A DNA stretch of 53,158 nt from an uncultured Candidatus Saccharibacteria bacterium (GTDB lineage Bacteria > Patescibacteriota > Minisyncoccia > Phycocordibacterales > UBA9973), in NCBI GenBank assembly GCA_964390615.1, contig CAYMIC010000001.1, positions 1 to 53,158 on the forward strand. Reading direction: 5' to 3'. The position numbers were made by a program, and so were the translations under genes. This document shows, piece by piece, positions 1 to 53,158 of the stretch (positions within the stretch are counted from its first letter, which is position 1; every line of letters starts with the position of its first letter). The notes under the pieces were generated by a model. The model was not told the DNA's origin and made no database searches. It worked only from the letters and a program-made list of their open reading frames with translations.

Positions 1-8
1 ACAAGGGG

Positions 9-37
9 TTGACTTTTTTAGTCAAGTATGATAAGAT
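9..37 (+). promoter_or_regulatory. Putative sigma70-type promoter upstream of the large surface-protein gene
   Basis: TTGACT (9-14), 17 nt, TAAGAT (32-37). The -35 is also the 5' arm of a small palindrome ttgact-ttttt-agtcaa (9-25). It lies about 80 nt upstream of the ATG at 126. Confidence 0.3.
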
Positions 38-125
38 AAGGGAAATTGAGCATTGGTTCGAAAATCATTATAAGGCATATTATCAGACAAACTTTATTAA
101 TCTAAGTTAAATTAAGTTAAATTTT

Positions 126-3100
126 ATGAAAAAAATAATTTCAGCAATTTTTGTTTTCGGTTTTCTAGCGCTTGGTGCTCAGACAGCAAGTGCTTTAGGC
201 GCGCCTATAGTTTATCAGCCACATGCTTCTAACATCACTGCTACTTCTGCAGTCTTAAATGGATCTGTAAATCCAAATGGCTACAGTACTAACGCTTGGT
301 TCACTACTCCAGCAAGTGGAAGTCAGCAACTATTTTTCCAAAATCTTGGAAGTGGTACATCTCCTGTAACTATGTCCTCTTACACTATGACTGGTCTTAC
401 TCCTAATACCACTTACTCTTTTGGTGTTAGTGCGACCAACTCTTATGGTAACAGTTATAGTGCATTGATAACTTTTACAACTACTTCAGGTGGAAACAAT
501 AATCCCCCACCATCTCTACCTTCAGTAGATCTATCTGCAAATAGTACAAACCTACCATACGGTGGTTCTACTACTATTTACTGGGATACTTACAACGCTA
601 CATCATGTACTGCGTCAGGTGGCGCAAACGGATGGGCTGGATACAAAAATCCAAATGGTGGATCTTTCAACACCGGTGCTCTATACAACTCTACAACTTA
701 TTCCATAACCTGTTCTAACGCTTCAGGTTCCGACTCTGACTCTTTGACTATCAATGTAGCGAACCAACCCTACAACCCACCATCTGCTCCATCTGTAAAC
801 CTTACAGCTAACCCGATGAGTGTTTCTTATGGTGGTTCAAGTGTCCTTTCCTGGAATTCTACTAACGCTACATCATGTGTCGCTACTGGCGCATGGTCTG
901 GGGTGAAACCTACTTCTGGAACATCTAACACTGGAGCTCTCACTAGTACCAAGACTTACACTTTGACTTGTACTGGTGCTGGAGGTTCAGCTTCTGACTC
1001 TGTAACTGTTTCAGTTGGCAGTCAACCACAACAGAATCCTACTGTAAACTTGAGTGCAAACCCTACTAGTGTTTCATCAGGTGGTTCTTCTACCCTTTCA
1101 TGGAATTCTACAAACGCTACAACTTGTAACGCATCTGGCGGTATGGGTGGCTGGGCAGGACCAAAAGCAACTTCTGGAACATTTTACGTAAACAATTTAA
1201 CTTACACTTCAACTTTCAATATCACTTGTTCTAACTCTAGTGGTTCTGCAACTGATTCTGTAACTATCTATGTTTCTCAAACTCCCCCACCTCCATCTCT
1301 TCCTTCAGTAGATCTATCTGCAAATCCTATGAGTGTAGTTTACGGTGGTTCTTCTACCCTTTCATGGAATTCTACTAATGCAAATTCATGTGTAGCATCA
1401 GGTGGAAGTAATGGCTGGGCTGGATCAAAACCAACTAGTGGAACATTTTACACTGGTAGTTTGTCCAATACTCTTTCCTACTCTATCTCTTGTTCTAATT
1501 CTGCTGGAAATACTGCAGACTCTGTAACTGTATATGTTGATACAAACAACGGAGGAAACAATGACCTAGATGTAATTACTAATACAGCAACCAATATCGA
1601 CGAAGACTCTGCAACCCTACGAGGTTCTGTAACTGGAGAAGGTGTTGTAGCGTGGTTTGAATGGAGTGAAGGCGACAACAACCTAGATGAAGATACAACT
1701 CACCAAACTCTAGGAAACACAAATGGTACTAACTTTAGTTACAACCTTAATAATTTAGACGACGATACTACATACTACTTCCGTGCAGTGGCTCGTGATG
1801 ATAACGGAAATACTGACTATGGTGTAGTTCGATCTTTCCGAACTTGCGACTCCAATGACAATTGTGGAAACAACAACGCTGACGACAAGCCAGAAGTCAC
1901 TACAAAAACTGCTACAAGTATTTCAAACACTTCAGCTACTCTAAATGGTGAACTAGATGATCTAGGTGGTGATAATGATGCTGATGTTTGGTTTGAATAT
2001 GGTGATGATCGCAATGATGTTGAAGACGGAGATGGAGATGACACTAGCCGTGAAAACATGGACGATGAAGATGATTTCAGTGACCGAATCACTGGCCTAC
2101 GATCTAACACCACTTACTATTTCCGTGCAGTCGCTAGAAACAGCGAAGGTACTGACTACGGCTCTATCCGATCATTCAAGACAAGTGGAGGTGCTACAAA
2201 TAATAATGGCTGCATAAATGGTTTCTGTGCACCACAAGCAGTGACTACCTTAGCTACTTCAATCGGCAATAACTCTGCTCGACTAAACGGTCTAGGTATT
2301 ATCAATGACGAAGCTCAAACCAATGCTTACTTTCAGTGGGGTTCTAACACAAACTTAAATAACGAAACTCCGCATGCATTTCTTGCAACCTCTGGTTCAA
2401 ATCCTTATTCTGCAAGTATCTTTGGATTATCTGCAAATACTACTTATTACTACCGAGCCGTTGTGACCAATCAATTTGGTACTTCTTATGGTGACCTAGC
2501 AAGTTTCCGAACTTCTGGAGGTAGCAATGGTGGTGGAACTGTTGCAGGATCAAGCACTACTATCATCCGAAACAACTCTTCTACTACTACATTGGTAGGT
2601 GGTACTGCTCGTCCATCTCTGATCTTCCTTTCTATCAGTCACAACGATGAGACTATCCGTCACGGTGAAATTGTAGAGTATGTTGTAAACTACCGAAACA
2701 TTTCCAAAAAAGAATTAAAGGACGTAGTTTTGCGAGTAGTACTTCCAAAAGAATTAAAGTTCGTAGAAACTAGTCGAGGTTATTTCTCTGAAACTAACAA
2801 TACTGTGGTTGTTAACATCGGAGACCTTCACCCTGATGAAGAAGGTTCTGTATTCGTAACAGCTCGAGTTCTTCCTACAGCAGAAGTAAACAAGATAACT
2901 GTAGTCACTGCAAACATTGCGTACACTATAGTATCTGACAATACTCAAGAAGAAGCATTCGCATATTCCAAGAACACTATCGACGATGGACTAAACCTTG
3001 GAGCATCTGCACTATTTGGAGTAGGCTTCCTACCAAACACTTTGTTTGGATGGTTACTACTTCTCTTGATAATCTTGCTTATCTTATTAGCTGCTCGTAT

Positions 3101-3221
3101 GGCTTATAATCACGGTCGCCCACAACACCAGACCATCGTGATGCCACCACAAAACCCTCCGGTATCAAATACTTCAGGACCGTTTTATGGAGCAACTCCT
3201 CCACGAGACACACACTACTAA
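126..3221 (+). CDS. Large modular cell-surface protein (signal peptide, FN3-like and Ig-like repeats, DUF11-like module, C-terminal TM anchor)
   Basis: 1031-aa ORF with ATG start and TAA stop. Signal peptide MKKIISAIFVFGFLALGAQTASA. Four FN3-like modules end in NTTY(Y/S)F(R/G)AV...G...G....F(R/K/T)T. Four tandem ~86-aa modules each carry a conserved Cys pair (S(V/L).LSANP.SV.YGGSSTLSWNSTNA.SC.ASGG ... (I/L)(T/S)C(S/T)). A DUF11-like module follows (GEIVEYVVNYRN...), then a TM helix LLLLLIILLILLAA and a Pro-rich tail. Confidence 0.85.
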   Translation: MKKIISAIFVFGFLALGAQTASALGAPIVYQPHASNITATSAVLNGSVNPNGYSTNAWFTTPASGSQQLFFQNLGSGTSPVTMSSYTMTGLTPNTTYSFGVSATNSYGNSYSALITFTTTSGGNNNPPPSLPSVDLSANSTNLPYGGSTTIYWDTYNATSCTASGGANGWAGYKNPNGGSFNTGALYNSTTYSITCSNASGSDSDSLTINVANQPYNPPSAPSVNLTANPMSVSYGGSSVLSWNSTNATSCVATGAWSGVKPTSGTSNTGALTSTKTYTLTCTGAGGSASDSVTVSVGSQPQQNPTVNLSANPTSVSSGGSSTLSWNSTNATTCNASGGMGGWAGPKATSGTFYVNNLTYTSTFNITCSNSSGSATDSVTIYVSQTPPPPSLPSVDLSANPMSVVYGGSSTLSWNSTNANSCVASGGSNGWAGSKPTSGTFYTGSLSNTLSYSISCSNSAGNTADSVTVYVDTNNGGNNDLDVITNTATNIDEDSATLRGSVTGEGVVAWFEWSEGDNNLDEDTTHQTLGNTNGTNFSYNLNNLDDDTTYYFRAVARDDNGNTDYGVVRSFRTCDSNDNCGNNNADDKPEVTTKTATSISNTSATLNGELDDLGGDNDADVWFEYGDDRNDVEDGDGDDTSRENMDDEDDFSDRITGLRSNTTYYFRAVARNSEGTDYGSIRSFKTSGGATNNNGCINGFCAPQAVTTLATSIGNNSARLNGLGIINDEAQTNAYFQWGSNTNLNNETPHAFLATSGSNPYSASIFGLSANTTYYYRAVVTNQFGTSYGDLASFRTSGGSNGGGTVAGSSTTIIRNNSSTTTLVGGTARPSLIFLSISHNDETIRHGEIVEYVVNYRNISKKELKDVVLRVVLPKELKFVETSRGYFSETNNTVVVNIGDLHPDEEGSVFVTARVLPTAEVNKITVVTANIAYTIVSDNTQEEAFAYSKNTIDDGLNLGASALFGVGFLPNTLFGWLLLLLIILLILLAARMAYNHGRPQHQTIVMPPQNPPVSNTSGPFYGATPPRDTHY
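504..1541 (+). repeat. Four tandem ~260-nt coding repeats (Cys-pair Ig-like modules) inside the surface-protein gene
   Basis: Protein repeats cover aa ~127-472. The DNA string ccttcagtagatctatctgcaaat occurs identically at 519-542 and 1301-1324, at the start of repeats 1 and 4. Confidence 0.8.
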
Positions 3222-5195: not shown

Positions 5196-6428
5196 TTAAG
5201 CCTTATCTTTCAAGTACCTCCCGAGGAATTCCTCTTTAAATGCAAAGAATTTATCATCGATAATAGACTGTCTGATTTGAGCCACCAAGTTCACTATAAA
5301 ATAAAGATTGTGAGTCGAGGCCAAGGTGCCAGCGAGCATTTCTTTACCATGAAAAAGATGAGCGATATAGCTTTTAGTATAGTTAGTGCAAGTATAGCAA
5401 GGGCATCCGGGATCAAGTGGAGTGTAGTCGTTTCGGAATTGTTTATTCATGATTATAATCTTGCCATCTTTAGTGTAAATGGTACCGTTTCGCCCTAGTC
5501 TAGTCGGAGCCACACAATCAAAAAGATCTACTCCGTTTTCTATCCCCATAAATAAATCTTCCGGTTCTCCAATGCCTAGCAAATGCCTCGGCTTTTCTTC
5601 TGGTAACACTTCGTTGACCCATTTTACAGCGGTCGACATATCTTCTTTCGCAAAAGATCCTCCAATTCCGAATCCATCAAACCCCTCGGTTCCCCCTGGG
5701 CCTTCAGTCCACATTTCAGAAATAACTTTTGCTGATAACTTTCTTAATCTTTCATCTCGTCCACCTTGAACTATTCCAAATAATGCAATTTTATTATCTG
5801 TATTTAATTTCTGATGCTCATTCAAACTACGCTTCGCCCAGGCGTGAGTACGATTGAGTGCTTCTTCTTGATATTTTAAATCCTCCGCGGGTGAAGTACA
5901 TTCATCAAAAGCAAAAATAATGTCAGCGCCTAGGTTGTGCTGAATTTGAATAGATTTCTCTGGAGTTATGTAGTGGATACTACCATCTAGGTGTGACTTA
6001 AAAGATACCCCGTCCTCACCTATCTTAGCGAGCCGTGGTGCATCCGAATCATCGAATCTCTCTGGAATCATAAGTGATGGATCGGTAATTTTTAAAACCT
6101 TAGACATGTCCTTACCATAGGCAGCACCTAATGAAAAAACCTGAAAACCACCTGAATCAGTCATAGTGGGACCAGACCAATTCATAAATTTACCTAACCC
6201 CCCTGCATCTCGCACAATACTATCACCAGGTTGAAGAAATAAATGATATGTATTGCCGAGCACTACTTGAGTGCCTACTTCTTTGACATGCTCGACTGTA
6301 AGAGACTTCACTGTGCCCTTAGTACCAACTGCCACAAAAGCCGGAGTCAAAATTTTTCCGTGCGGAGTTTCCAACACTCCTACCCTACCGAGATGTCCTT
6401 CTAATTTTTTTTCTATTTTAAAATTCAT
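5196..6428 (-). CDS. tgt: tRNA-guanine transglycosylase (queuine tRNA-ribosyltransferase)
   Basis: 410 aa. Motifs LGNTYHL, DSGGFQV, FAFDEC, LLGIGEPEDL, DCVAPTR and zinc site CPCYTC. Confidence 0.92.
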   Translation of the reverse strand: MNFKIEKKLEGHLGRVGVLETPHGKILTPAFVAVGTKGTVKSLTVEHVKEVGTQVVLGNTYHLFLQPGDSIVRDAGGLGKFMNWSGPTMTDSGGFQVFSLGAAYGKDMSKVLKITDPSLMIPERFDDSDAPRLAKIGEDGVSFKSHLDGSIHYITPEKSIQIQHNLGADIIFAFDECTSPAEDLKYQEEALNRTHAWAKRSLNEHQKLNTDNKIALFGIVQGGRDERLRKLSAKVISEMWTEGPGGTEGFDGFGIGGSFAKEDMSTAVKWVNEVLPEEKPRHLLGIGEPEDLFMGIENGVDLFDCVAPTRLGRNGTIYTKDGKIIIMNKQFRNDYTPLDPGCPCYTCTNYTKSYIAHLFHGKEMLAGTLASTHNLYFIVNLVAQIRQSIIDDKFFAFKEEFLGRYLKDKA

Positions 6429-6433
6429 TTAAT

Positions 6434-7222
6434 TTATTTTTTCACTTCAACAAACTTTAATTCTTGGATATTTACCGGAGAAACCAATAGCGCTTTTACA
6501 AAAGAATCTCGAGGATCAGAGATGATAGTTTCCACTCGCGCCAAAGTATAGGGGAAAATTCCTGGCAGTACAGCTTCAGTGCCAGGCGTAAGCTCTAAGT
6601 CTCTCGGAATGTTTATTTCAAAATTTCCACCGCCTCGTCCTACTGCTTCTAGGTATAAACTTTTATCACCGACTACTACTTCTTTTTTTTCACCAGCAGT
6701 AGAATACAAAACTACCTTAGAAGTACTGCCATAGACTTGATCGATACGACCAATCGGTATATCTCCTAAAGCAAAAACTTCATCACCTACGACTACTCCA
6801 TCTCGGTCTCCTAAATCAATAATCAAAGTATCGTACGCTGATTTGCGAGGTTTAGACAAAATACTACCTAATATAAAATCTGATTGCGTGTTGCGTCCTA
6901 GCGTTTCTTTTAAAGAATTATTTTCAGCCAAGAGAGTATTGTAATTAGCCATTTCGGCTTCATATTCTCGGAGTTGGTTTAGCAACTCTTCATTCTTGGA
7001 CATGAGTCCCTTTTTAGATTTTAAAAAAGCTCCGCTGTTACCCAAGCCCTCACCAACATTATTTCCAAGAATAATTATCGGTCGGAAAATCGCATGAGTG
7101 ACCTTTGAAAAACCTCTAAAAATAGGGGCATGAAAGTAAATTAAGAGAAAGATAATTGCCAAAATAGCAATCACTTTTTTAGTATGTTTTTTTCTTAATT
7201 TCCTATCGTGGAGGTAGCTCAT
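6434..7222 (-). CDS. mreC: Rod shape-determining protein MreC
   Basis: 262 aa. N-terminal TM, coiled coil (NEELLNQLREYEAEMANYNTLLAENNSLKE) and a C-terminal beta-rich domain. Overlaps the end of mreB by 20 nt. Confidence 0.8.
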   Translation of the reverse strand: MSYLHDRKLRKKHTKKVIAILAIIFLLIYFHAPIFRGFSKVTHAIFRPIIILGNNVGEGLGNSGAFLKSKKGLMSKNEELLNQLREYEAEMANYNTLLAENNSLKETLGRNTQSDFILGSILSKPRKSAYDTLIIDLGDRDGVVVGDEVFALGDIPIGRIDQVYGSTSKVVLYSTAGEKKEVVVGDKSLYLEAVGRGGGNFEINIPRDLELTPGTEAVLPGIFPYTLARVETIISDPRDSFVKALLVSPVNIQELKFVEVKK

Positions 7223-8249
7223 CTTGATGTCCGATCAAAACTTCCTTGTAATATGGAATATCATCTAGAATTACTCCGGTACCGCGAGCGACTGCTGAGA
7301 GTGGATCATCCACCACATATACTGGAATTTTCAGAGTACTTTCAAGTAACCTATCAAGTCCTGGGAGCAATGCTCCACCACCAGAGAGCATTATGCCACG
7401 ATGCATAATATCAGAAAGTATTTCTGGGGGTGTAGTTTCTAGTACATCTTTTACACCATCTACAAATTCTCGGACCGACAAAGAAATAGCTTCACGGATA
7501 TCAGCATCAGTCACAACCACTTCACGAGGAAGTCCGGTGAGTAAATCACGACCACGAACTTCAGTTTCCATATATTCACCCGGAGACACAGAGCTGATGG
7601 CAATTTTCACTGCTTCGGCTGTAGTTTCACCGATTAAAATTTTAAACTCATCTCGCATATAAGTGATGATGTCTGTATTTAACCTATCTCCAGCGATTTT
7701 AATATTTTTTGATTTTACAATACCTGAAAGTGAAATCACTGCGATGTCAGTAGTACCTCCCCCGATATCGATAATCATAGATCCTACTGCTTCTTTGATA
7801 GGCATACGGATACCAATAGCTGCTGCCATGGGTTCTTCCACCAAGTACACTTCGCGAGCTCCAGCCGAACGAGCCGCATCATACACTGCGCGAGTCTCAA
7901 CATTAGTACTTCCAGATGGCACACCAACTACAACCCTAGGACGACCAAACTTTTTAGACATTTTGTCTGCCTTATTGATCAGATACGAAAGCATTTCTTC
8001 AGTAACTTCAAAGTCTGAAATCACACCGTCGACGAGTGGTCGGACCGCACGGATATGACCCGGAGTTCGGCCAAGCATTTCTTTGGCTTTTGCCCCAACT
8101 GCGAGGACTTGGTTAGTCTTGATGTTAACCGCTACTACCGATGGTTCATTGATTACGATACCGTGGCCTTTCAAATACACTAGAGTGTTTGAAGTTCCCA
8201 AGTCTATACCAATATCATTTGAAATTAAATCATAAAACTTTTTAAACAT
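7203..8249 (-). CDS. mreB: Rod shape-determining actin homologue MreB
   Basis: 348 aa. Actin-fold motifs IGIDLGTSNT, IIDIGGGTTD and MLSGGGALL. Confidence 0.95.
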   Translation of the reverse strand: MFKKFYDLISNDIGIDLGTSNTLVYLKGHGIVINEPSVVAVNIKTNQVLAVGAKAKEMLGRTPGHIRAVRPLVDGVISDFEVTEEMLSYLINKADKMSKKFGRPRVVVGVPSGSTNVETRAVYDAARSAGAREVYLVEEPMAAAIGIRMPIKEAVGSMIIDIGGGTTDIAVISLSGIVKSKNIKIAGDRLNTDIITYMRDEFKILIGETTAEAVKIAISSVSPGEYMETEVRGRDLLTGLPREVVVTDADIREAISLSVREFVDGVKDVLETTPPEILSDIMHRGIMLSGGGALLPGLDRLLESTLKIPVYVVDDPLSAVARGTGVILDDIPYYKEVLIGHQDELPPR

Positions 8250-9519
8250 TATTTTTTTCTTCCTTATTTTCTTGCAGCATTTTTAAAAGTTCTTCTTTGG
8301 AAATCACACTACCTTTCTCCTCGGTACGGCGTTTGACCTCGACTCCATTCTCTTTGAGAGATCGTGCGGAAACCACTACTCGAATCGGCATTCCTAAAAG
8401 GTCAGCATCCGCAAATTTTTCTCCAGCGGAAACTTCCTTTCGATCATCAAAGAAAACCTCGATATTATTTTTTTGCAAAGTCTCATACAATTCATTAGCT
8501 TCTGTCATAACCGCTTCGTCTTCACCGAGACTCAAAAGATGCACTCGAAATGGCGCTATAGCTTCTGGCCAGATGATGCCTTTGTCGTCGGAAAGAATCT
8601 CAACCACAGTGCCCATAAGGCGAGTAACTCCTATGCCGTAACCACCCATAAATACAGACTTTTTATCTCCAGCTTCATCAGTATAAAAAAGTTCAAAAGG
8701 ATCAGTGTATTTAGTACCTTGTTTAAAAATATTTCCAACCTCAATGGACTTCATAGGAACCAAATCTTCCCTTTTCACACCTAAGTCTTCGAGTATCTTT
8801 TCGTCTAGAACTTCTTCATTCACAGCTATACCTTTATTTTCATCAACATAGATAGTATCTTCTCCAGCTTCAGATATAGTCTGAAACTCGTGAGAATACT
8901 GAGAAAATGTTCCACCTGAGGCAAAGGTCACATAAGTACGATGACCAATACCGCAACGGGTATACACTTTCATATACGCCTTTTTCACTTCTTCGTAAAA
9001 TTTATCCAAATCTTCTTGGGTACGAGTAAAAGAGTACAAATCCTTCATCAAAAACTCGCGACCACGCATGATTCCAGACTTTGCTCGCAACTCATTTCGA
9101 AATTTAGTTTGAATTTGGTAAATATACAAAGGTAAGTCATTGTAAGATTTTACATATTCAGTTAGGAGATTCACTAGTTGTTCGTCATGAGTAAAACCCA
9201 AACCGAGTTTAGTTTGATCTTTCAATTCTGTTTTAAACCAAACATCTACTAAGTTATCATCCCATCGGCCAACTTTTTCCCAAACATCTTGCTTCTGCAG
9301 TGCAGTCATGATCATCTCCTGAGAACCTATCGCATTCATTTCCTCTCGGATTATGTTTGAAATTTTATTCAAAACTCTCCACCCTAGTGGCAAATAGCTA
9401 TACACCCCAGCCATTTCCTTATGGATAAACCCCCCACGGATTAAAAGCTCGGCGTTTTTAGATACTTCGTCAGAAGGTGCCTCTTTTCTAGTTTTAGTGA
9501 AAAGTTGTGTTTGTCTCAT
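8242..9519 (-). CDS. proS: Prolyl-tRNA synthetase, short form without the INS editing domain
   Basis: 425 aa. N-terminus MRQTQLFTKTRKEAPSDEVSKNAELLIRGGFI, class II motif 2 region LRAKSGIMRGREFLMKD, motif 3 GGYGIGVTRL and a C-terminal anticodon-binding domain. Confidence 0.88.
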   Translation of the reverse strand: MRQTQLFTKTRKEAPSDEVSKNAELLIRGGFIHKEMAGVYSYLPLGWRVLNKISNIIREEMNAIGSQEMIMTALQKQDVWEKVGRWDDNLVDVWFKTELKDQTKLGLGFTHDEQLVNLLTEYVKSYNDLPLYIYQIQTKFRNELRAKSGIMRGREFLMKDLYSFTRTQEDLDKFYEEVKKAYMKVYTRCGIGHRTYVTFASGGTFSQYSHEFQTISEAGEDTIYVDENKGIAVNEEVLDEKILEDLGVKREDLVPMKSIEVGNIFKQGTKYTDPFELFYTDEAGDKKSVFMGGYGIGVTRLMGTVVEILSDDKGIIWPEAIAPFRVHLLSLGEDEAVMTEANELYETLQKNNIEVFFDDRKEVSAGEKFADADLLGMPIRVVVSARSLKENGVEVKRRTEEKGSVISKEELLKMLQENKEEKNNV

Positions 9520-11654: not shown

Positions 11655-11730
11655 GCCGCCTTAGCTCAGTTGGTAGAGCTACACTTTTGTAAAGTGAGGG
11701 TCCTCGGTTCGAGTCCGAGAGGCGGCTCCA
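11655..11730 (+). tRNA. tRNA-Thr (anticodon UGU)
   Basis: 76-nt cloverleaf. Acceptor GCCGCCT/AGGCGGC; D arm GCTC-AGTTGGTA-GAGC; anticodon arm ACACT-TTTGTAA-AGTGA (anticodon TGT, A27-A43 mismatch); 5-nt variable loop; T arm CTCGG-TTCGAGT-CCGAG; discriminator T; encoded CCA. Confidence 0.9.
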
Positions 11731-11735: not shown

Positions 11736-12341
11736 TTACTTATCGTATTTCCGATCTTTTAAATCTATAGACTCTCCTGGCTCTACAGTAACACTAGCCA
11801 TGGCATCATCATCTTCACTAGGATAATATCCCGTACTTGATTCTGTAATATTTTTGCTCGCAACTTTTCCTAATGGATCTATTTCTATTTTATATGATTT
11901 TCCATCTCCACCATCCTCTTTTTTCCATACAGCAGTCGTTCCTAGTTCTTGACTAGCAAACCATTCACTATAACTTGCTACTTTTTTTGATGCTAATGGA
12001 TTTTCAATTACCTTATCATTTTCTTTTATAGTATATCTAGTCTTTGAAATTGTTTTACCATTTATCTCTCCCGGAGCGTAAGCTTTAGTAACTTCTTTGT
12101 ACTTTAAAGCAAATTGATCAATTTCATCTTTTGATAATTTCGCAAATTCTTCCTTAGTTATTTGATTATCCTTTAAAACTCCTACTTCTTGTAATCGATC
12201 ATAAAAAGCCGCCCTTCCTATCGGAACTTCAGCATTTTGCCCTATAGCACTACCAGCACCCAGTCCTGCGGCTGTAAACATAACTGCCTTTGTTAAATTT
12301 TTTGCATTCTTTCGTAAGTTTTCAAAATTTCCAAATTTCAT
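11736..12341 (-). CDS. Hypothetical secreted protein
   Basis: The ORF-track start at 12374 is TTG; the first ATG gives MKFGNFENLRKNAKNLTKAVMFTAAGLGAGSAIGQ, which is signal-peptide-like. No family recognised. Confidence 0.6.
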   Translation of the reverse strand: MKFGNFENLRKNAKNLTKAVMFTAAGLGAGSAIGQNAEVPIGRAAFYDRLQEVGVLKDNQITKEEFAKLSKDEIDQFALKYKEVTKAYAPGEINGKTISKTRYTIKENDKVIENPLASKKVASYSEWFASQELGTTAVWKKEDGGDGKSYKIEIDPLGKVASKNITESSTGYYPSEDDDAMASVTVEPGESIDLKDRKYDK

Positions 12342-12396
12342 ATTTTTTATAGTTAATTTATTAATACATCCCAATCATAGCATTTATCTTACTTAA

Positions 12397-12801: not shown

Positions 12802-12829
12802 AAAAAACCCTATATTACTAGGGTTTTTT
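12802..12829 (-). terminator. Terminator-like hairpin overlapping the stop of 12818..13534
   Basis: aaaaaaccc-tatattacta-gggtttttt. The stem is AT-rich and the flanks are symmetric. Confidence 0.4.
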
Positions 12830-13534
12830 GGTGGTTTCGGGAGTAATGTTAGCTTTCTCTTTTTCAGTTTCTTCTAAGGTTTTTAGGTCAAAAGTCTTTT
12901 CAACTAGAGCCCCAAGTTCTTCAATAGAACGAAAACCAGTCAGAGGTTCATCATCCACCACCAAAGCTGGCAGTTTAGTATCCTCTATCTTGTAGATATC
13001 CAACATGGCTTTGACTGCAGAGAGGTCAGTACTGTAATCAAAAGAATACACTCGGAGATCTGGGTAAAGTTCTCGCAGACGAGACAGTACTAGTCCTTGG
13101 CGCTCACACTCACTGCAATTTTCAGCAGTAGTATAGAAATATAGAATAAAGGCATAATTCTCACCACATCGCTCAGCGATACGCTTCAGCAGGAGGTAAT
13201 CCTTGATTTCAAGTAGCGAATAATATTTCTTCAAATACGCAAGTTCGCTATCAGATCCTAAGTTACTCTCTCCCCACTCGAGTTTGCTACCAAATTCAGA
13301 AAGTTCTTGAGAAAGTGTAGAACTCGAAACGTTCTTGCAAGATAGCTCTGAAAGAAGTGAAAACTGAGTTTCTGATGAAAGAATATCGATAGCTATTTGG
13401 TCTTGAATATTCTGCAAGGCCTTGATTTTTTTGCTTCCAAAAAAACTACTGACATATGTCGCAGTCAAAAAAAGCATGATGGTGATAAAGAGAACTATTA
13501 AATATTTTTTCCAATCAGTAGGTTCTGGGTTCAT
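12818..13534 (-). CDS. Membrane-anchored thioredoxin-fold protein (CxxC = CSEC)
   Basis: 238 aa with an N-terminal TM (YLIVLFITIMLFLTATYV). The C-terminal part, ILYFYTTAENCSECERQG...KLPALVVDDEPL, resembles a Trx/Grx fold with a cis-Pro region. The ATG is 4 nt after the GT2 stop. Confidence 0.5.
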   Translation of the reverse strand: MNPEPTDWKKYLIVLFITIMLFLTATYVSSFFGSKKIKALQNIQDQIAIDILSSETQFSLLSELSCKNVSSSTLSQELSEFGSKLEWGESNLGSDSELAYLKKYYSLLEIKDYLLLKRIAERCGENYAFILYFYTTAENCSECERQGLVLSRLRELYPDLRVYSFDYSTDLSAVKAMLDIYKIEDTKLPALVVDDEPLTGFRSIEELGALVEKTFDLKTLEETEKEKANITPETTKKP

Positions 13535-14783: not shown

Positions 14784-14795
14784 GCTAGTCCTTGA

Positions 14796-14804
14796 AATAT
14801 AACA
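14796..14804 (-). promoter_or_regulatory. Extended -10 element upstream of the GT2 gene
   Basis: Minus strand reads TGt-TATATT, 12 nt before the ATG at 14783. Confidence 0.35.
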
Positions 14805-14821
14805 TTTTTTGGTCAAAAAGT

Positions 14822-17207: not shown

Positions 17208-17213
17208 GTTTAT

Positions 17214-38975: not shown

Positions 38976-39929
38976 TTATTTATTCTCTTTGGAAAGTAGT
39001 TCCACCGCTTTGGCAATCAACGGGATGATGTCATTGTAAATCCGAAGCTCCGGAATCTCAGACAACTGAAACCATTTCGCACCATCGAGACCTCCAGAGG
39101 ACTCCAACATTAATTCATGGTATTCACTCTCGGCCAAAAAGTACGAAACATGTTTCAAAGTCTTTCCTTTCTCTGGATGTGTCGCCACATATTCGTTTTC
39201 GCCCAACTTGGTAATTATTTTTATATCTAGCCCTATTTCATCTTTGATTTCTCCGACTGTACCATCCTCTTCACTCTCGCCTTCTTCAATATGACCTTTA
39301 GAAAGTGTCCAGTAGCCAAAAACATCGTGAACTAATGCGAAATATAAAACTCCATCTTTGCGAGCGTAAACCAAAGCACCACCTAAAGATTCTTTGGGAA
39401 GTTTAGTAATGTCTACTGGTTCTTGTTCTTTTTTCTTTTTACTTGTCTCCTCCTTGCCTGGTTCACCTATTTCCTTATACACCGCACCAAGAACTCCATT
39501 GACAAATTTACCAGAATTTTCACCACCGAAAGTTTTTGCAAGTTCGATAGCTTCATTGATAGCAACCTTGGGAGGAACTTGAGTGCGGTCGCCGAACAAG
39601 AGTTCGGTGAGTCCAATACGCAAAATATTTCTATCGACAACTGAGATCTTTTCAATCGGCCAATCTGGTGCAGCTTTTTCTATGATCTCATCGATTACTT
39701 TTTGTTTTTTCAAAATCTCCTGAAGAAGCGAGAAGACAAAAACATCGTCTTCAAGTCCAGGAGCAAATTCTTTTAAATTTCGAGTGACTACTTTCTTGAT
39801 TTCATCATCAGTCCAGCCAGTTTTATCTTCCAATCCTTTCGGACCCTGATCTAGAGGACCAGTCGGCAAGAAATCCCACTCAAAGAGGGTCTGAAGAACT
39901 ATTGATCTTGAAAGGTGCCTGTTTGCCAT
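38976..39929 (-). CDS. nusB: NusB antitermination factor fused to a C-terminal Nudix hydrolase domain
   Basis: 317 aa. The NusB part is RSIVLQTLFEWDF...DRNILRIGLTELLF...AINEAIELAKTFGGENSGKFVNGVLG. A Lys/Glu linker follows. The Nudix box is GHIEEGESEEDGTVGEIKDEIGL, which fits GX5EX7REUXEEXGU with R to G and E to D. Confidence 0.8.
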   Translation of the reverse strand: MANRHLSRSIVLQTLFEWDFLPTGPLDQGPKGLEDKTGWTDDEIKKVVTRNLKEFAPGLEDDVFVFSLLQEILKKQKVIDEIIEKAAPDWPIEKISVVDRNILRIGLTELLFGDRTQVPPKVAINEAIELAKTFGGENSGKFVNGVLGAVYKEIGEPGKEETSKKKKEQEPVDITKLPKESLGGALVYARKDGVLYFALVHDVFGYWTLSKGHIEEGESEEDGTVGEIKDEIGLDIKIITKLGENEYVATHPEKGKTLKHVSYFLAESEYHELMLESSGGLDGAKWFQLSEIPELRIYNDIIPLIAKAVELLSKENK

Positions 39930-39968: not shown

Positions 39969-40190
39969 TTACTCTGCCTTCTTTGCCTTAGCTTTTGCCT
40001 GTTTCTTTTCTGTCTTCTTTACCAAATCCACAGCCTTTTTACTGCGATAAAATCCACATTCTTTACAAACGGTGTGTCGTCGCTTTAGGGCGCCACAATT
40101 TGTACACTTCGCAAAGTTAGTGTTTTTGAGAGCGTGGTGAGAACGCCTGTTTGCTGTATGCGATTTTGTATGTCTCATTCGTATAACCAT
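39969..40190 (-). CDS. rpmF: 50S ribosomal protein L32 (zinc-ribbon form)
   Basis: 73 aa. MRHTKSHTANRRSHHAL, zinc ribbon CTNCG...CKECG, and a Lys-rich tail. Confidence 0.85.
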   Translation of the reverse strand: MVIRMRHTKSHTANRRSHHALKNTNFAKCTNCGALKRRHTVCKECGFYRSKKAVDLVKKTEKKQAKAKAKKAE

Positions 40191-42932: not shown

Positions 42933-43484
42933 TTATTTTATTAATTCAATAAGCCAAATTATTTGTAAAATAGTTGGAATAAGCAATATACAGCCAATAA
43001 AATATGTAGCAATCACTTTGTTTTTTAATTTTATTAAACCAAAAAAAGTATATTGTACTCGATTAGGCGCAACCAAAGTCATGGCAATTGCCAAAAGAGA
43101 AAGAAACATCATAAATCCGTGAAATGTAATAATTAACTCTCTTTCTGTACCTTGCTCAGATAAAATCGTAATTAATAATAAAGGAATATTTAATAAAAAT
43201 AAAATAAGAGGAAACCAGTAAAAGAATCCCTTGCTTTTATCTACGTCACTATTTACGACTCTCTCTTGATAATCAGGTACTCCTCCTATGGATTTTTGTT
43301 TTAACCTATAAAAAGTAATACCAATAAAATATACAGCTATAGGTAAAAATACATACTGTTCATCAAAACTTTCATGTAATACAAAAGAAAGTATAAAAAG
43401 TAAAAGTGATACTACTCCAATAAAAATATAAAAATAGTTCCAAAAATTTCCGTACTGTTTTAATAATTGAAGATATTTAAACAT
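42933..43484 (-). CDS. Hypothetical polytopic membrane protein
   Basis: 183 aa with about five hydrophobic helices. The ATG is 3 nt after the gyrB stop. Confidence 0.6.
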   Translation of the reverse strand: MFKYLQLLKQYGNFWNYFYIFIGVVSLLLFILSFVLHESFDEQYVFLPIAVYFIGITFYRLKQKSIGGVPDYQERVVNSDVDKSKGFFYWFPLILFLLNIPLLLITILSEQGTERELIITFHGFMMFLSLLAIAMTLVAPNRVQYTFFGLIKLKNKVIATYFIGCILLIPTILQIIWLIELIK

Positions 43485-45647: not shown

Positions 45648-46784
45648 ATGCAATACGAAGTAAAAACTGAAGTAGAAAAAGACCTCTTGGCTAAACTCGA
45701 ACCCAAGACAGACGTGCAATCTATGCGCATGAAGAAATATTTGAGTATGCCTGACCTATCTCGCACCCTCGGCAGCCCTATCCACGAGATAGTAGAAAGA
45801 ATACTCACTCAAGAAGATTTTAAAAATTTTGACATCATTAAAGTACCCGAAGTAGTACCGGTGGATGTTAGCTTCGATATTTATGGTTTTGCACCTGATC
45901 ACCCTGCTCGCTCTCCTTCAGACACTTACTTTTTAGATGAAAAAAATATTCTCCGTCCTCATACTACCGTGATGTGGTACTACTACTTGAATCAACCAGA
46001 AGTAAAAGAGCGTATGGCCCGTGGAGAAGCTGTAGGATTTTTCTCTTTTGGGAAAGTTTACCGCAAGGACGAGATAGATCGAAACCATATGAACATCTTT
46101 CACCAAATGGATGGAGGATTCTTAATTCCAAAAAGTAAAAAAGTGATTAGTGTGGAAGATTTACAAAAAGTTCTATCAGATATCGCCAAAGCTGTTTTCG
46201 GTGGAGATATAAAGTATCGTTTCAACCCAGACACCTTCCCTTACACCGACCCATCCCTAGAAATGGAAATAGAAGTCGGCGGCCGTTGGATTGAAGTTCT
46301 CGGTTGTGGCATCATGACTGATAATCTGATTCGAAATCTTGGTCTAAACCCAGAAGAATGGAGTAATTGGGCCTTTGGCTTTGGACTCGAGCGATTAGCT
46401 ATAATCAGCATGGATCTACCAGACATCCGTCTATTTTGGAGCGATGATGAGCGAGTAAAGAAACAGCTCGTACTGGGACAAAAATATCATGAAGTCAGTA
46501 AATTCCCACCAGCAGTACGAGATATTTCTTTTATCGTACCAAAAACTTTTGTGCCAAATGATTATTTCGACTTCGTCCGAGAAACAATCCCAGAAATAGT
46601 CGAACAAGTAGAACTACTAGACAAATATGAAAACGACCAAAAATTTGGTGCCGATAAATTGAGCTACGCCTACCGTATCACCTACCGATCACTCGACAGG
46701 ACACTCACCAGTGAGGAAGTAGAAAAAATCCACAAAAATCTAGAAGCGGAAACAGCAAAAAACTTCGAAGCAACTATTCGTTAG
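45648..46784 (+). CDS. pheS: Phenylalanyl-tRNA synthetase, PheS-type catalytic core fused to a C-terminal FDX-ACB domain (monomeric, mitochondrial-like architecture)
   Basis: 378 aa. Class II motifs ILRPHTT, FSFGKVYRKDEIDRNHMNIFHQMDG and GFGLERLAI. The C-terminal 104 aa, YHEVSKFPPAVRDISFIVP...LLDKYENDQKFGADKLSYAYRITYRSLDRTLTSEEV, match the FDX-ACB pattern at the C-terminus of PheT. There is no N-terminal coiled coil and no adjacent pheT. Confidence 0.8.
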   Translation: MQYEVKTEVEKDLLAKLEPKTDVQSMRMKKYLSMPDLSRTLGSPIHEIVERILTQEDFKNFDIIKVPEVVPVDVSFDIYGFAPDHPARSPSDTYFLDEKNILRPHTTVMWYYYLNQPEVKERMARGEAVGFFSFGKVYRKDEIDRNHMNIFHQMDGGFLIPKSKKVISVEDLQKVLSDIAKAVFGGDIKYRFNPDTFPYTDPSLEMEIEVGGRWIEVLGCGIMTDNLIRNLGLNPEEWSNWAFGFGLERLAIISMDLPDIRLFWSDDERVKKQLVLGQKYHEVSKFPPAVRDISFIVPKTFVPNDYFDFVRETIPEIVEQVELLDKYENDQKFGADKLSYAYRITYRSLDRTLTSEEVEKIHKNLEAETAKNFEATIR

Positions 46785-46797: not shown

Positions 46798-47031
46798 TTA
46801 ACGCGCTAGTTCGTATTCGTTTTCTCCACGACGAATAATTACATATTCGTATGCTCTACCATCAAACATTGCAGTAAAATGAAAATCCCGATCTGGTGCC
46901 CGGTCCGCTGCACTTAGGAGCTCATCTAAGCGGTCGTTGCTTAGGTCCTCTAAATATCGCATACCATCGGGATAGCGATCGTTATCATAAATTTGCACGT
47001 TCTTGTTATAACCCACCATTATTGTAGTCAT
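46798..47031 (-). CDS. Small hypothetical protein
   Basis: 77 aa with an ATG start. It fits the 12-13 nt gaps to both neighbours. No family recognised. Confidence 0.45.
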   Translation of the reverse strand: MTTIMVGYNKNVQIYDNDRYPDGMRYLEDLSNDRLDELLSAADRAPDRDFHFTAMFDGRAYEYVIIRRGENEYELAR

Positions 47032-51047: not shown

Positions 51048-51971
51048 TTACAAAGTTGATACTGCAGTTTTTAATTCTCTATGTGATTTATAGAAGAAAA
51101 GACCGATGATTATGAAGGTCATAAGTGGAGAAACGTATTCTGGTACATGGACACCAAAACTATGACATATCATAATCACTCCAAGAACAAGGATAGAATA
51201 CATAGCTCCATTTTTTAAATACGCATATTTTTTAATTCGTTCTATATTTCGTAGTGTAAGCTCTCTAACCAAAAGAGCGCCAAAGCCATTTCCAAGTAAA
51301 ATAAGTGGAACGGACAAAGTAAAAGCAAATGCTCCTAAAACTCCATCAATAGAAAAAGTCGTATCAATAATTTCTAAGAAAAAAAGTTTAGACAAGTCGG
51401 ATTGAGCACTACCTAAAAGTTTTTTCTCTTGCATTTCAGCATTTTGTTTAAAACCATGAGTTATGAAAAATAAAGTTGAGCCAATTACAGCACCAAGTCC
51501 CATCATACTACTCTCTTTTAAAGCAAATGCGGTAATGACTGTTAAAAGAATAGAAACTATTGCGTAAAACCAAATTCCTTTAGACATAAAAAACTTCTCA
51601 GTCCGTGGTAGTCCGGGATTTTTATCTTCCAAGAAAAGCCAGTGTAAAAATAAAAATAAAAGAAATACTCCACCAGCAACCAAAAGTATTGGTGCAGATT
51701 TTTCTATTGATTCTTGAACGAGAGGGTCAGAGCTCCATGCCGCCGAAAGTACTTGCCCGATAGAAAGACTAGAGTTGAAAGCCCAGACTATCGCAAAAGG
51801 CAAAACTCCGCGCACCATAAACACAGCAATAAACATGCCCCAGGTCAAAAACCACCGGCGAGCACGCTTACTCATTGTACCCAAGACTTCGGCATTGATG
51901 ATAGCATTGTCCACTGACGAAACCGCCTCAAAGAGAGTCAAACCTAGTATTGTAAAAATTGCAGCTAACAT
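51048..51971 (-). CDS. Integral membrane protein, DUF475/TerC-like
   Basis: 307 aa with eight or more TM helices and motif VSSVDNAIINAEVL. The family call is from memory of the motif only. Confidence 0.5.
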   Translation of the reverse strand: MLAAIFTILGLTLFEAVSSVDNAIINAEVLGTMSKRARRWFLTWGMFIAVFMVRGVLPFAIVWAFNSSLSIGQVLSAAWSSDPLVQESIEKSAPILLVAGGVFLLFLFLHWLFLEDKNPGLPRTEKFFMSKGIWFYAIVSILLTVITAFALKESSMMGLGAVIGSTLFFITHGFKQNAEMQEKKLLGSAQSDLSKLFFLEIIDTTFSIDGVLGAFAFTLSVPLILLGNGFGALLVRELTLRNIERIKKYAYLKNGAMYSILVLGVIMICHSFGVHVPEYVSPLMTFIIIGLFFYKSHRELKTAVSTL

Positions 51972-51980: not shown

Positions 51981-52733
51981 TTAGCGCACTTTACCCCATT
52001 TGCCCACTTTAGTGCGGACTATGGTTAAGGCTAAAGCTGGAATGCCAAGTTTTTCACCCAAGTCATTGGAGATACTACGCACATAGGTGCCAGAACCACA
52101 TTTGATGTGAAACGAAGCTATGTAAAACTTGTCTTGAGACCCCTGGAGAACTTTCTCCCAATTTTTTAAAATTTCTTTTTGTCGAAAATCCCCTTCTACC
52201 TTGAAAATCCTTTTTTTAATTTTTTTAAATAAAACATCTCCGCAAGCTTTTCTAATTTTCAAAAATTTTAAACTTTTTACTTCTACTTTATGAGTTGGAA
52301 CTTTTACCTCCACTCCCGCCCTGGCGTATTCAAAAAGATGTTTACCTTGCACTGTTTGTGAAGAATAAATTGGATATTTTTGAGAAAACTTACCTGTAAA
52401 AAATTTGAGATTTTGTCTTATTTTATTTTCTAAATCTTTTTGAATCAAATCAAGAATCTTGCATTCTACAATCTTGCCCAAGATATCGTACGTATCTGTT
52501 GCAAAACCAAACAAAATTTCAAAGTCGTATTCTTTATCTAATTTCAAATACTTATCCTTATTTTTACACTCATCTCCTGCGAGGACTACCAAGACACCAG
52601 AAGCCATAGGGTCCAATCTGCCAGCATAGGTCATCGGCATATTTACATACTCTTTGTTTTTAATGCGAAAAGACTCCAACGATTGTAGTGGAGTCTCCCC
52701 TTCTTTTTTATTTAGAATAATTACCTTCTTCAT
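51981..52733 (-). CDS. truB: tRNA pseudouridine(55) synthase TruB-like
   Basis: 250 aa. Catalytic-Asp motif YAGRLDPMASGVLVVLAG, plus KEYDFEILFGFATDTYDILG. Confidence 0.8.
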   Translation of the reverse strand: MKKVIILNKKEGETPLQSLESFRIKNKEYVNMPMTYAGRLDPMASGVLVVLAGDECKNKDKYLKLDKEYDFEILFGFATDTYDILGKIVECKILDLIQKDLENKIRQNLKFFTGKFSQKYPIYSSQTVQGKHLFEYARAGVEVKVPTHKVEVKSLKFLKIRKACGDVLFKKIKKRIFKVEGDFRQKEILKNWEKVLQGSQDKFYIASFHIKCGSGTYVRSISNDLGEKLGIPALALTIVRTKVGKWGKVR

Positions 52734-52736
52734 TAA

Positions 52737-52982
52737 CTAAGCTCTTTTTTTACTAGCAGTCTTGGTAGGAACATTCATAGCTTTCATTTCTTTAGCTACA
52801 ACTCCTTTTACTACTTTCACATCTTTCTTCACTTCTTTTTGCACTTTCATCGCCCAATCCTGTAACTTCTTCTGATGCTTCTTACCATCGGGACCCCAAA
52901 GCATATATGCTGCTCCTGCTACTGCGCTTAGAGCCAAACCTGTTTTTACTGCCTTACCTACTCCACTTTTTTTCTTTGCCAT
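52737..52982 (-). CDS. YtxH-like small Lys-rich membrane-anchored protein
   Basis: 81 aa with a hydrophobic segment GLALSAVAGAAYMLW followed by a Lys-rich helical region. Confidence 0.5.
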   Translation of the reverse strand: MAKKKSGVGKAVKTGLALSAVAGAAYMLWGPDGKKHQKKLQDWAMKVQKEVKKDVKVVKGVVAKEMKAMNVPTKTASKKRA

Positions 52983-53006
52983 AATATTTATATATTAATA
53001 TTATAA

Positions 53007-53158
53007 TTACTTATTCTTTTTGGTTCGTTTTTTCTTTCCAAAAATAAATTTATAAACTGCACTATCTTCTACCTCTGAGAAAGCATCCCCAACTTTTTCC
53101 GAAGCATTATTTACTCCATTTTTAAGAATTCTAGAGATATCCCGGAAATTTTGTAAAG
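53007..53158 (-). CDS. Partial CDS (C-terminal 50 codons; the 5' end lies beyond the window)
   Basis: My own translation of the minus strand gives ...LQNFRDISRILKNGVNNASEKVGDAFSEVEDSAVYKFIFGKKKRTKKNK, with a TAA stop at 53009-53007. Not in the ORF track. Confidence 0.3.
   Translation of the reverse strand, partial: LQNFRDISRILKNGVNNASEKVGDAFSEVEDSAVYKFIFGKKKRTKKNK

What the first reader, a model, noticed from the sequence alone, without database searches (positions are those of the whole stretch)
1..53158. TGA is absent from all 47 supported CDS, both as a stop and in frame
Reading the stop of every supported CDS directly from the sequence gives 34 TAA, 13 TAG and 0 TGA. The supplied ORF track does treat TGA as a stop: the spurious ORF 5479..5769 ends at tga 5767-5769. 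So the full-length core proteins (RpoB 1071 aa, RpoC 1209 aa, GyrB, RNase R and others) also contain no in-frame TGA across roughly 16,000 codons, although the trinucleotide is common out of frame. UGA therefore looks neither used as a stop nor reassigned to a sense codon, as it is in code 4 or code 25. That is the pattern expected for an unassigned or avoided codon, for example after loss or impairment of RF2. TAG ends about a quarter of the genes, so this is not simply AT bias favouring TAA.
Basis: partly seen in the sequence, partly recalled or inferred. Interest (0 to 1): 0.65.

Follow-up and report, generated by a model that had tools for sequence, protein, structure and literature searches.

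The report
TGA-free stretch in a TGA-poor bacterium
None of the 47 genes in this 53-kb piece of an uncultured wastewater Nomurabacteria-like bacterium ends in TGA, but its closest relatives do end conserved genes in TGA (about 3-7% of stops), so this looks like ordinary rarity of TGA in an AT-rich lineage plus small-sample chance, not a change in the genetic code.

Summary
My own gene tiling plus Pfam gives 47 CDS with 34 TAA, 13 TAG and 0 TGA stops. There is no in-frame TGA in about 16,900 codons, although TGA occurs about 1,100 times out of frame.

The interpretation (UGA unassigned, RF2 lost or impaired) is not supported. [quoted passage not shown]

In about 165 loci from relatives, TGA ends 7.4% of homology-supported genes at similar GC and rises with GC. 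TAG stays near 20-25% up to 47% GC. This is the known bacterial trend, so a quarter of stops being TAG does not rule out AT bias.

Orthologues of 15 of 25 testable window genes end in TGA in some relative, flush with the conserved C-terminus. RNase R is the clearest case: TAA in the window, TGA with an ATGA overlap in four relatives.

The nearest relatives have few TGA stops, but real ones: L176 1/9, L177 1/20, L087 1/18, L170 2/20, and several loci with 0/8 to 0/19.

P(0 of 47) is 0.03 at the broad-clade rate, 0.08 at the matched-orthologue rate and 0.17-0.36 at the nearest-group rate.

prfB, prfA and a UCA tRNA could not be tested. A genome-wide absence of TGA remains possible but unlikely (about 4%).

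The parts
126..3221 (+). CDS, fn3/DUF11 surface protein, 1031 aa; stop TAA
3222..3713 (-). CDS, DUF192; stop TAA
3716..5122 (-). CDS, PLP-dependent Orn/Arg/DAP decarboxylase-like; stop TAA
5196..6428 (-). CDS, tRNA-guanine transglycosylase Tgt; stop TAA. The antisense ORF 5479-5769, which ends in TGA, lies inside it.
6434..7222 (-). CDS, MreC; stop TAA
7203..8249 (-). CDS, MreB; stop TAG
8242..9519 (-). CDS, class II aminoacyl-tRNA synthetase (ProRS-like); stop TAA
9507..10370 (+). CDS, ribosomal protein S2 (the true start may be downstream of 9507); stop TAA
10427..11209 (+). CDS, EF-Ts; stop TAA
11214..11621 (+). CDS, hypothetical membrane protein; stop TAG
11655..11730 (+). tRNA-Thr (anticodon UGU), the only tRNA in the window; no tRNA with anticodon UCA
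11736..12374 (-). CDS, hypothetical; stop TAA
12478..12744 (-). CDS, small hypothetical; stop TAA. The positional counterpart in L177 (3646-3891) ends in TGA; similarity is weak (36% over 33 aa).
12818..13534 (-). CDS, hypothetical membrane protein; stop TAG
13539..14828 (-). CDS, family 2 glycosyltransferase; stop TAA
14888..15181 (-). CDS, DUF378; stop TAG. This replaces the spurious + strand ORF 14892-15200.
15320..16030 (+). CDS, DsbA-like thioredoxin; stop TAA
16077..16409 (-). CDS, hypothetical; stop TAA
16548..17228 (-). CDS, IS200-like Y1 transposase-domain protein; stop TAG. A homologue in L007 ends in TGA.
17260..17784 (-). CDS, AAA_33/zeta-toxin-like kinase; stop TAA
17785..19062 (-). 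CDS, sigma-70 (RpoD); stop TAA. 2 of 58 orthologues end in TGA.
19055..20830 (-). CDS, DnaG primase; stop TAA. 5 of 41 orthologues end in TGA.
20838..24467 (-). CDS, RpoC, 1209 aa; stop TAA
24473..27688 (-). CDS, RpoB, 1071 aa; stop TAA. 1 of 69 orthologues ends in TGA.
27886..28545 (-). CDS, TrmD; stop TAG. 7 of 64 orthologues end in TGA.
28620..28964 (-). CDS, KH-domain protein (KhpA-like); stop TAA
29091..29399 (-). CDS, ribosomal protein S16; stop TAA
29440..30375 (-). CDS, hypothetical secreted protein; stop TAA
30442..32373 (+). CDS, RNase R; stop TAA at 32371-32373, overlapping the next gene's ATG (TAATG). 9 of 43 orthologues end in TGA, with an ATGA overlap at the same conserved ...IDYxLxx* end in L170, L005, L009 and L022.
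32373..34283 (+). CDS, Peptidase_S11 + PGA_cap fusion; stop TAA
34322..35164 (-). CDS, IMP cyclohydrolase-like; stop TAG
35306..35938 (-). CDS, hypothetical; stop TAA
36013..38262 (-). CDS, SMC_N-family ATPase; stop TAG
38250..38945 (-). CDS, RNase III; stop TAG. 5 of 65 orthologues end in TGA.
38976..39929 (-). CDS, NusB-NUDIX fusion; stop TAA. 5 of 64 orthologues end in TGA.
39969..40190 (-). CDS, ribosomal protein L32; stop TAA
40251..42008 (+). CDS, ThrRS; stop TAA
42085..42873 (+). CDS, hypothetical; stop TAG
42933..43484 (-). CDS, hypothetical membrane protein; stop TAA
43488..45584 (-). CDS, GyrB; stop TAG
45648..46784 (+). CDS, single-chain PheRS-like protein (tRNA-synt_2d + FDX-ACB); stop TAG
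46798..47031 (-). CDS, small hypothetical; stop TAA
47044..48072 (-). CDS, rhodanese/UPF0176; stop TAA
48119..51046 (-). CDS, UvrD-type helicase with PD-(D/E)XK nuclease domain; stop TAA. 5 of 41 orthologues end in TGA.
51048..51971 (-). CDS, TerC; stop TAA. 3 of 18 orthologues end in TGA.
51981..52733 (-). CDS, TruB; stop TAA
52737..52982 (-). CDS, small hypothetical; stop TAG
53007..53158 (-). Partial CDS running off the right edge; stop TAA at 53007-53009

Best explanation
The window comes from an AT-rich (39% GC, 33% GC3) Paceibacteria/Nomurabacteria-like CPR bacterium that most likely uses the standard bacterial code (table 11). In this code UGA is a legitimate but rarely used stop.

Two factors push termination towards TAA. 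One is AT-biased mutation pressure. The other is the usual preference of housekeeping genes for TAA (my own knowledge); the window is full of such genes: RpoB/C, sigma-70, ribosomal proteins, aminoacyl-tRNA synthetases. TAG stays at its usual share of about 20-25%, and TGA falls to a few per cent (about 3-7% in relatives).

With only 47 genes sampled, zero TGA stops is a plausible draw (P about 0.03-0.36, depending on how narrowly the reference clade is drawn).

Shown here: the counts, the taxonomic placement, the stop usage of relatives, and TGA stops at orthologous C-termini in the nearest relatives. Inferred, not shown: that this organism itself keeps a functional RF2 and has some TGA stops elsewhere in its genome.
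For: 1. Taxon. The best RpoB hits (85-88% identity) are Candidatus Nomurabacteria/Paceibacterota MAGs. A 2026 review states that UGA recoding in this phylum is restricted to the Gracilibacteria/JAEDAM01 lineage (PMC13293708).

2. Relatives with GC 0.35-0.43. TGA ends 77 of 1,037 homology-supported ORFs (7.4%). TGA rises from 5.8% at GC below 0.34 to 18% at GC above 0.55, and TAG is 20-25% up to 47% GC. This matches the general bacterial rule (PMC8789281).

3. Matched orthologues. 49 of 922 end in TGA (5.3%). 15 of 25 window gene families have at least one TGA-ending orthologue with a flush C-terminus. The expected number of TGA stops for those 25 window genes is 1.47, and P(none) is 0.20.

4. 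RNase R ends at the same conserved ...IDYxLxx position in all loci. The stop is TAA in the window, L169, L173, L175 and L087. It is TGA with a canonical ATGA start/stop overlap in L170, L005, L009 and L022. L170 groups with the window in an RpoB neighbour-joining tree (75% bootstrap).

5. The closest relative found (L176; Tgt 93% identical; a contig of the same assembly series, L110, is 85.5% identical in DNA to the window) ends a PKD/Por_Secre_tail protein in TGA. Its C-terminus is flush with the L177 orthologue (...PITVIN* against ...PITVIH*).

6. L087, fully syntenic with the window over 22 kb, has 1 TGA stop in 18 genes. L177 has 1 in 20.

7. No in-frame TGA occurs in any window CDS, so nothing points to reassignment.
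Against: - Zero of 47 is on the low side: P = 0.027 against the broad-clade rate of 7.4%.
- Several rpoB-neighbourhood loci of near relatives are also TGA-free: L167 0/8, L168 0/9, L169 0/19, L173 0/17, L175 0/17. Pooled with the window, this group has 2 TGA in 142 stops against about 8% in the rest (post-hoc Fisher P = 0.002). The sub-lineage may therefore really have an unusually low TGA share. These loci carry the same syntenic genes, however, so they are not independent samples.
- prfB, prfA and the full tRNA set of this organism were not seen. No RF gene occurs in the window or in the 166 loci searched by tblastn, and none appears in the Pfam gene tables of the 14 loci fetched afterwards. 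Retention of RF2 is therefore inferred, not shown.
Confidence: 0.88

Rival explanations
1. UGA is unassigned in this organism. RF2 has been lost or disabled and all TGA stops have been purged, without a cognate tRNA yet. This would be a codon-capture intermediate on the way to a code 4 or code 25 type reassignment.
For: - 0 TGA in 47 stops and 0 in-frame TGA in 16,923 codons.
- The TAA/TAG-only pattern, with TAG at 28%, resembles RF2-less genomes.
- Five rpoB-neighbourhood loci of near relatives are also TGA-free.
- The same phylum contains a lineage (Gracilibacteria/Absconditabacteria) that lost prfB and reassigned UGA (PMC6851277; PMC13293708).
Against: - The nearest relatives found (L176, L177, L087, L170) each terminate at least one gene with TGA. 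The L176 and L170 (RNase R) stops sit at conserved C-termini; the L087 and L177 cases were not checked that way. A purge would therefore have to be private to this species.
- Zero of 47 is expected 8-36% of the time at matched-orthologue or nearest-relative rates.
- In the papers read here, RF2 loss goes together with UGA reassignment; that no RF2 loss without reassignment is established in bacteria is my own knowledge.
- Nothing in the window bears directly on RF2.
Confidence: 0.04
2. RF2 is retained, but the sub-lineage containing the window has an unusually strong and heritable avoidance of TGA stops (about 1-3%, well below the 7% of the wider class). Possible causes are low RF2 abundance or leaky UGA termination.
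For: - The window plus the 24-member RpoB clade sample has 2 TGA in 142 stops, against 75 in about 950 in other relatives of similar GC (Fisher P = 0.002).
- Ho & Hurst's summary of Wei et al. [quoted passage not shown]
Against: - The grouping is post hoc.
- The clade has only 30% bootstrap support.
- All of these loci are the same syntenic rpoB neighbourhood, rich in housekeeping genes whose orthologues have only 5.3% TGA anyway.
- Independent regions of the closest relatives give 1/9, 1/20 and 1/18, which is ordinary for the clade.
Confidence: 0.2
3. UGA is reassigned to an amino acid (code 4 Trp or code 25 Gly) but happens not to occur in this window.
For: No TGA stops. Code 25 exists in the same phylum.
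Against: - There are 0 in-frame TGA against 152 TGG and 1,210 GGN codons in an AT-rich genome, where a reassigned TGA would be favoured.
- All conserved proteins are full length under table 11.
- Relatives use TGA as a stop.
- No UCA tRNA occurs among 48 tRNAs in the window plus 166 loci.
Confidence: 0.01

Closest known systems
GC-dependent stop-codon usage in bacteria (Povolotskaya 2012; Korkmaz 2014; Wei 2016; Ho & Hurst 2021, PMC8789281)
   Same: TAA dominates, TAG is about 20-25% and TGA is the rarest stop in an AT-rich genome. Among the relatives examined here, TGA share rises with GC while TAG stays at 20-25% up to 47% GC.
   Different: The window's count is exactly zero, at the low tail of what the trend predicts for 47 genes (P about 0.03-0.36).
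Translation table 25 (UGA = Gly) in Gracilibacteria/Absconditabacteria, same phylum
   Same: Patescibacterial host, low GC, and no TGA used as a stop in the sampled genes.
   Different: Code 25 genomes carry many in-frame TGA at conserved Gly positions, have tRNA-Gly(UCA) and lack prfB. This window has no in-frame TGA at all, and its close relatives stop at TGA.
Translation table 4 (UGA = Trp) in Mycoplasmatota and insect endosymbionts after prfB loss
   Same: A TAA/TAG-only stop set in an AT-rich, reduced genome.
   Different: There is no in-frame TGA at Trp positions (152 TGG, 0 TGA). The status of prfB is unknown.
Acholeplasmataceae/Phytoplasma: low-GC lineages with low TGA stop usage that still keep prfB (PMC12421855)
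   Same: Low TGA stop usage with the standard meaning of UGA retained. This is the best analogue for what is inferred here.
   Different: It is a different phylum, and prfB presence has not been verified for this organism.

Membership tests
Standard bacterial code (table 11) with low TGA stop usage | TGA terminates conserved genes in close relatives at the orthologous C-terminus | tested here: met
   RNase R in L170, L005, L009 and L022. A PKD protein in L176. TrmD, DnaG, RNase III, NusB, TerC and others: 15 of 25 families, 49 of 922 orthologues.
Standard bacterial code (table 11) with low TGA stop usage | Within the clade, TGA share scales with GC while TAG is roughly constant | tested here: met
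   TGA rises from 5.8% to 18% across the GC bins. TAG is 20-25% up to 47% GC, and higher in the few GC-rich loci.
Standard bacterial code (table 11) with low TGA stop usage | Intact prfB (RF2) in the same genome | not testable with these tools
   No RF gene occurs in the window or in the 166 loci searched by tblastn, and none appears in the gene tables of the 14 loci fetched later.
Standard bacterial code (table 11) with low TGA stop usage | At least some TGA stops in this organism's own genes | tested here: not met
   0 of 47 in the window. Same-species contigs L001-L003 and L084-L086 add no TGA stop. The sample is too small to exclude a share of up to 6.2%.
UGA sense reassignment (codes 4 / 25) | In-frame TGA inside conserved genes at Trp or Gly positions | tested here: not met
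   0 in-frame TGA in 16,923 codons. No same-frame ORF pairs are split by TGA. Proteins are full length against their orthologues.
UGA sense reassignment (codes 4 / 25) | tRNA with anticodon UCA | tested here: inconclusive
   The only tRNA in the window is tRNA-Thr(UGU). None of 48 tRNAs in the window plus 166 loci has anticodon UCA. The full tRNA set was not seen.
Unassigned UGA (RF2 lost, no cognate tRNA) | Genome-wide absence of TGA both as a stop and in frame | tested here: inconclusive
   True for the 53-kb window only, probably under 10% of the genome (genome size assumed from typical CPR genomes, not measured). The 95% upper bound on the TGA share is 6.2%.
Unassigned UGA (RF2 lost, no cognate tRNA) | Absence of prfB with prfA retained | not testable with these tools
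   See the prfB row above.
Unassigned UGA (RF2 lost, no cognate tRNA) | Shared by sister genomes (a lineage property) | tested here: not met
   L176 1/9, L177 1/20, L087 1/18 and L170 2/20 TGA stops.

The most novel reading that the evidence does not exclude
This particular Nomurabacteria-like species has purged UGA from its genome (RF2 lost or non-functional, no UCA tRNA). That would make it a natural 'unassigned stop codon' intermediate of the codon-capture route, in a phylum where a sister class went on to UGA = Gly.
Probability: 0.04. Interest if true: 0.75.

Novelty: already known. Interest (0 to 1): 0.13.

Why it matters
If UGA were truly unassigned, this would be a rare living intermediate of genetic-code change. 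It would also bear on gene calling in CPR metagenomes.

The evidence points to the ordinary case instead. This is an AT-rich lineage in which TGA is a seldom-used but working stop codon. The practical lesson is that a zero count in about 50 genes cannot establish loss of a codon when the lineage background is only 3-7%.

One mildly useful by-product: in Paceibacteria sampled around rpoB and gyrB, TGA is about 6-9% of stops at 30-43% GC and TAG about 20-25%.

Tried and rejected
1. Extending the window in the same organism. Look-ups of window proteins returned only short, low-coverage contigs lying inside the window (L001-L003, L084-L086). L002 runs about 0.9 kb past the right edge but diverges from the window at 53007. 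The 60,318-bp source contig itself was not retrievable.

2. Searching for prfA and prfB. I ran tblastn with E. coli RF1 and RF2 sequences written from memory against the window and 166 loci and found nothing. The tblastn set-up worked, because FtsE was found. I had no CPR RF2 seed sequence to use in the protein database, so I ran no further search on it.

3. Laying contigs of wastewater and activated-sludge runs that hold the window (X1-X4) on the flank of L087, to read the window species' version of a TGA-ending gene. The result was fragmentary and dominated by a conserved tRNA, so it was uninformative.

4. My first 'homology-supported' stop counts were inflated. They included antisense ORFs inside rpoC where rpoC ran off the locus end (L004 6530-6817, L011 5588-5839). 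I redid the analysis with open-ended ORFs masked, and the clade TGA share fell from 9.5% to 7.4%.

5. A beta-binomial fit found no detectable between-locus overdispersion in TGA share, but loci of 10-20 genes give little power.

6. Rfam on the window found only the tRNA.

7. A literature search found no report of RF2 loss or UGA avoidance in Paceibacteria/Parcubacteria.

Full report
**Observation.** I re-derived the gene set mechanically (six-frame ORFs, greedy non-overlapping tiling) and annotated it with Pfam.

- The window is 96% coding.
- Two corrections were needed. The + strand ORF 14892-15200 is spurious; the real gene is the antisense DUF378 gene 14888-15181, which ends in TAG. A partial CDS at the right edge (53007-53158, minus strand) ends in TAA.
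- No ORF of the tiling ends in TGA, so no gene is split by an in-frame TGA.
- There are 16,923 in-frame codons with 0 TGA, against 152 TGG and 1,210 GGN. TGA occurs 1,102 times in the two off-frames of the CDS.
- No intergenic ORF of 25 aa or more ends in TGA.
- The only tRNA is tRNA-Thr(UGU) at 11655-11730.

**Who it is.** RpoB has several thousand strong relatives. The best are 84-88% identical and are named, where named at all, Candidatus Nomurabacteria, Paceibacterota or Minisyncoccia. The GTDB-representative scan gave the same picture.

The window is therefore from a Paceibacteria/Nomurabacteria-like CPR bacterium, with 38.9% GC and 33% GC3. Public runs that hold it are wastewater, activated-sludge and freshwater metagenomes.

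**Background stop usage in relatives.** I collected three sets of loci:

- 80 loci around rpoB from species-representative genomes;
- 80 loci around gyrB from metagenomes;
- 14 further loci around the RpoB and Tgt proteins most similar to the window's.

I tiled ORFs in all loci and kept those with a homologue in another locus. A first pass over-counted TGA, because antisense ORFs inside rpoC were accepted where rpoC ran off a locus end. After masking open-ended ORFs:

- relatives with GC 0.35-0.43 have 77 TGA in 1,037 stops (7.4%), with TAA about 72% and TAG about 21%;
- TGA rises with GC, from 5.8% below 34% GC to 18% above 55%;
- TAG stays at 20-25% up to 47% GC.

**Matched orthologues.** 25 window genes have three or more orthologues (at least 60% mutual coverage, both C-termini within 15 residues of the alignment end).

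- 49 of 922 orthologues end in TGA (5.3%).
- 15 of the 25 families include at least one TGA-ending orthologue.
- The expected number of TGA stops in those 25 window genes is 1.47.
- The probability that none is TGA is 0.20.

RNase R is the clearest case. The protein ends at the same conserved ...IDYxLxx position everywhere.

- The stop is TAA in the window (TCA TAA TG, overlapping the next gene's ATG), L169, L173, L175, L087, L008 and L007.
- The stop is TGA, in the canonical ATGA stop/start overlap, in L170, L005, L009 and L022.

**Nearest relatives.** A neighbour-joining tree of 193 RpoB sequences groups the window with P0002 (L167), P0004 (L169) and P0005 (L170), with 75% bootstrap support. 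TGA stops among the called genes:

| Locus | TGA stops / genes | Note |
|---|---|---|
| L167 | 0/8 | nearest RpoB group |
| L169 | 0/19 | nearest RpoB group |
| L170 | 2/20 | nearest RpoB group; RNase R and an HTH_5 protein |
| L168 | 0/9 | wider, weakly supported 24-member group |
| L173 | 0/17 | wider group |
| L175 | 0/17 | wider group |
| L176 | 1/9 | closest by Tgt (93% aa) |
| L177 | 1/20 | Tgt 89% |
| L087 | 1/18 | GyrB 88%, collinear with the window over 22 kb |

- L176 is the closest relative found. It comes from assembly GCA_013558295.1 (JACCDN01...). L110, a contig with the same accession prefix, is 85.5% identical in DNA to the window.
- The TGA-ending gene in L176 encodes a PKD/Por_Secre_tail protein. 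Its C-terminus (...PITVIN*) is flush with that of the L177 orthologue (...PITVIH*).
- UGA is therefore a working stop in the lineages immediately around the window.

**How surprising is 0 of 47?** From:

- P = 0.027 at the broad-clade rate (7.4%);
- P = 0.077 at the matched-orthologue rate (5.3%);
- P = 0.17 with the nearest RpoB group (2/47) and 0.36 with the wider 24-clade sample (2/95), both as Jeffreys posterior predictive values;
- zero of 47 bounds the organism's TGA share only below 6.2% at 95% confidence.

One nuance remains. Pooling the window with the 24-clade sample gives 2 TGA in 142 stops, against about 8% elsewhere (post-hoc Fisher P = 0.002). The sub-lineage may therefore have a really low TGA share. 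Three things weaken this: the loci carry the same housekeeping-rich syntenic genes, the clade has 30% bootstrap support, and independent regions of the closest relatives (L176, L177, L087) show ordinary rates.

**What could not be tested.**

- No RF1 or RF2 gene lies in the window or in the 166 loci searched by tblastn. The queries were E. coli sequences written from memory. The same set-up found FtsE. None appears in the gene tables of the 14 loci fetched later.
- No UCA tRNA is among the 48 tRNAs found in the window plus 166 loci.
Look-ups returned only short contigs inside the window.
- Retention of RF2 in this organism is therefore an inference from its relatives, not an observation.

- Most likely (about 0.88): standard code, TGA rare because of AT bias and TAA preference, and a small sample.
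- Reassignment is effectively excluded for the window.
- A private, complete loss of UGA (unassigned codon, RF2 loss) is not excluded, but it has no positive support beyond the zero count (about 0.04).
- A heritable, stronger-than-usual avoidance of TGA in this sub-lineage is possible (about 0.2, overlapping with the main explanation) and would be of minor interest.

Whole-bin stop counts plus a prfB/prfA HMM search and a tRNA scan would settle it.

Noticed in passing
window 45648-46784 (+): A 378-aa protein combines the class II Phe-tRNA synthetase core (tRNA-synt_2d) with a C-terminal FDX-ACB anticodon-binding domain. This is the single-chain, mitochondrial-FARS2-like architecture rather than the usual bacterial alpha/beta PheRS. 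It is conserved in 18 relatives' loci.
   Followed up: no
window 14888-15200: Two overlapping antisense ORFs of about 100 aa. The slightly longer + strand ORF (14892-15200) has no Pfam match. The minus strand ORF (14888-15181) is DUF378 and sits where relatives have DUF378, between the DsbA-like gene and the GT2 gene. Longest-ORF gene calling picks the wrong strand here.
   Followed up: yes
L084 5779-7400 (same species, sample ERZ724529), equivalent to window rpoC codon 422: A TTG to TAG change splits rpoC in this roughly 3x-coverage contig, with 5 other substitutions in 1.6 kb. It is probably an assembly or read error, or a rare variant. It is not a TGA.
   Followed up: partly
window 53007-53158 and L002 1-894: A same-species contig (99.6% identical over 2.2 kb) departs from the window exactly at 53007, inside a small membrane-protein gene. 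This looks like a strain-variable spot, and Logan contig L001 also appears to end near there.
   Followed up: no
window 38976-39929 (-) and 32373-34283 (+): Two domain fusions: NusB + NUDIX hydrolase, and D-Ala-D-Ala carboxypeptidase (Peptidase_S11) + PGA_cap. Both are conserved in relatives.
   Followed up: no
window 16548-17228 (-): An IS200-like Y1 transposase-domain protein lies between the housekeeping genes. Relatives carry homologues at other positions, and one of them (L007) ends in TGA.
   Followed up: no
L070 (genome locus, GC 43%): This more distant Paceibacteria locus shows the opposite bias: about 9-10 TGA stops and 0 TAG among roughly 16-18 genes. Stop usage varies widely across the class.
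   Followed up: no
L087 about 2026-2114: A tRNA-like element sits directly at the TGA stop of the large upstream gene. It shows very high depth and GGTTCGAA-type loose ends in the run contigs. tRNA-Ser(GGA) is the commonest tRNA in the window plus loci (26 of 48).
   Followed up: no
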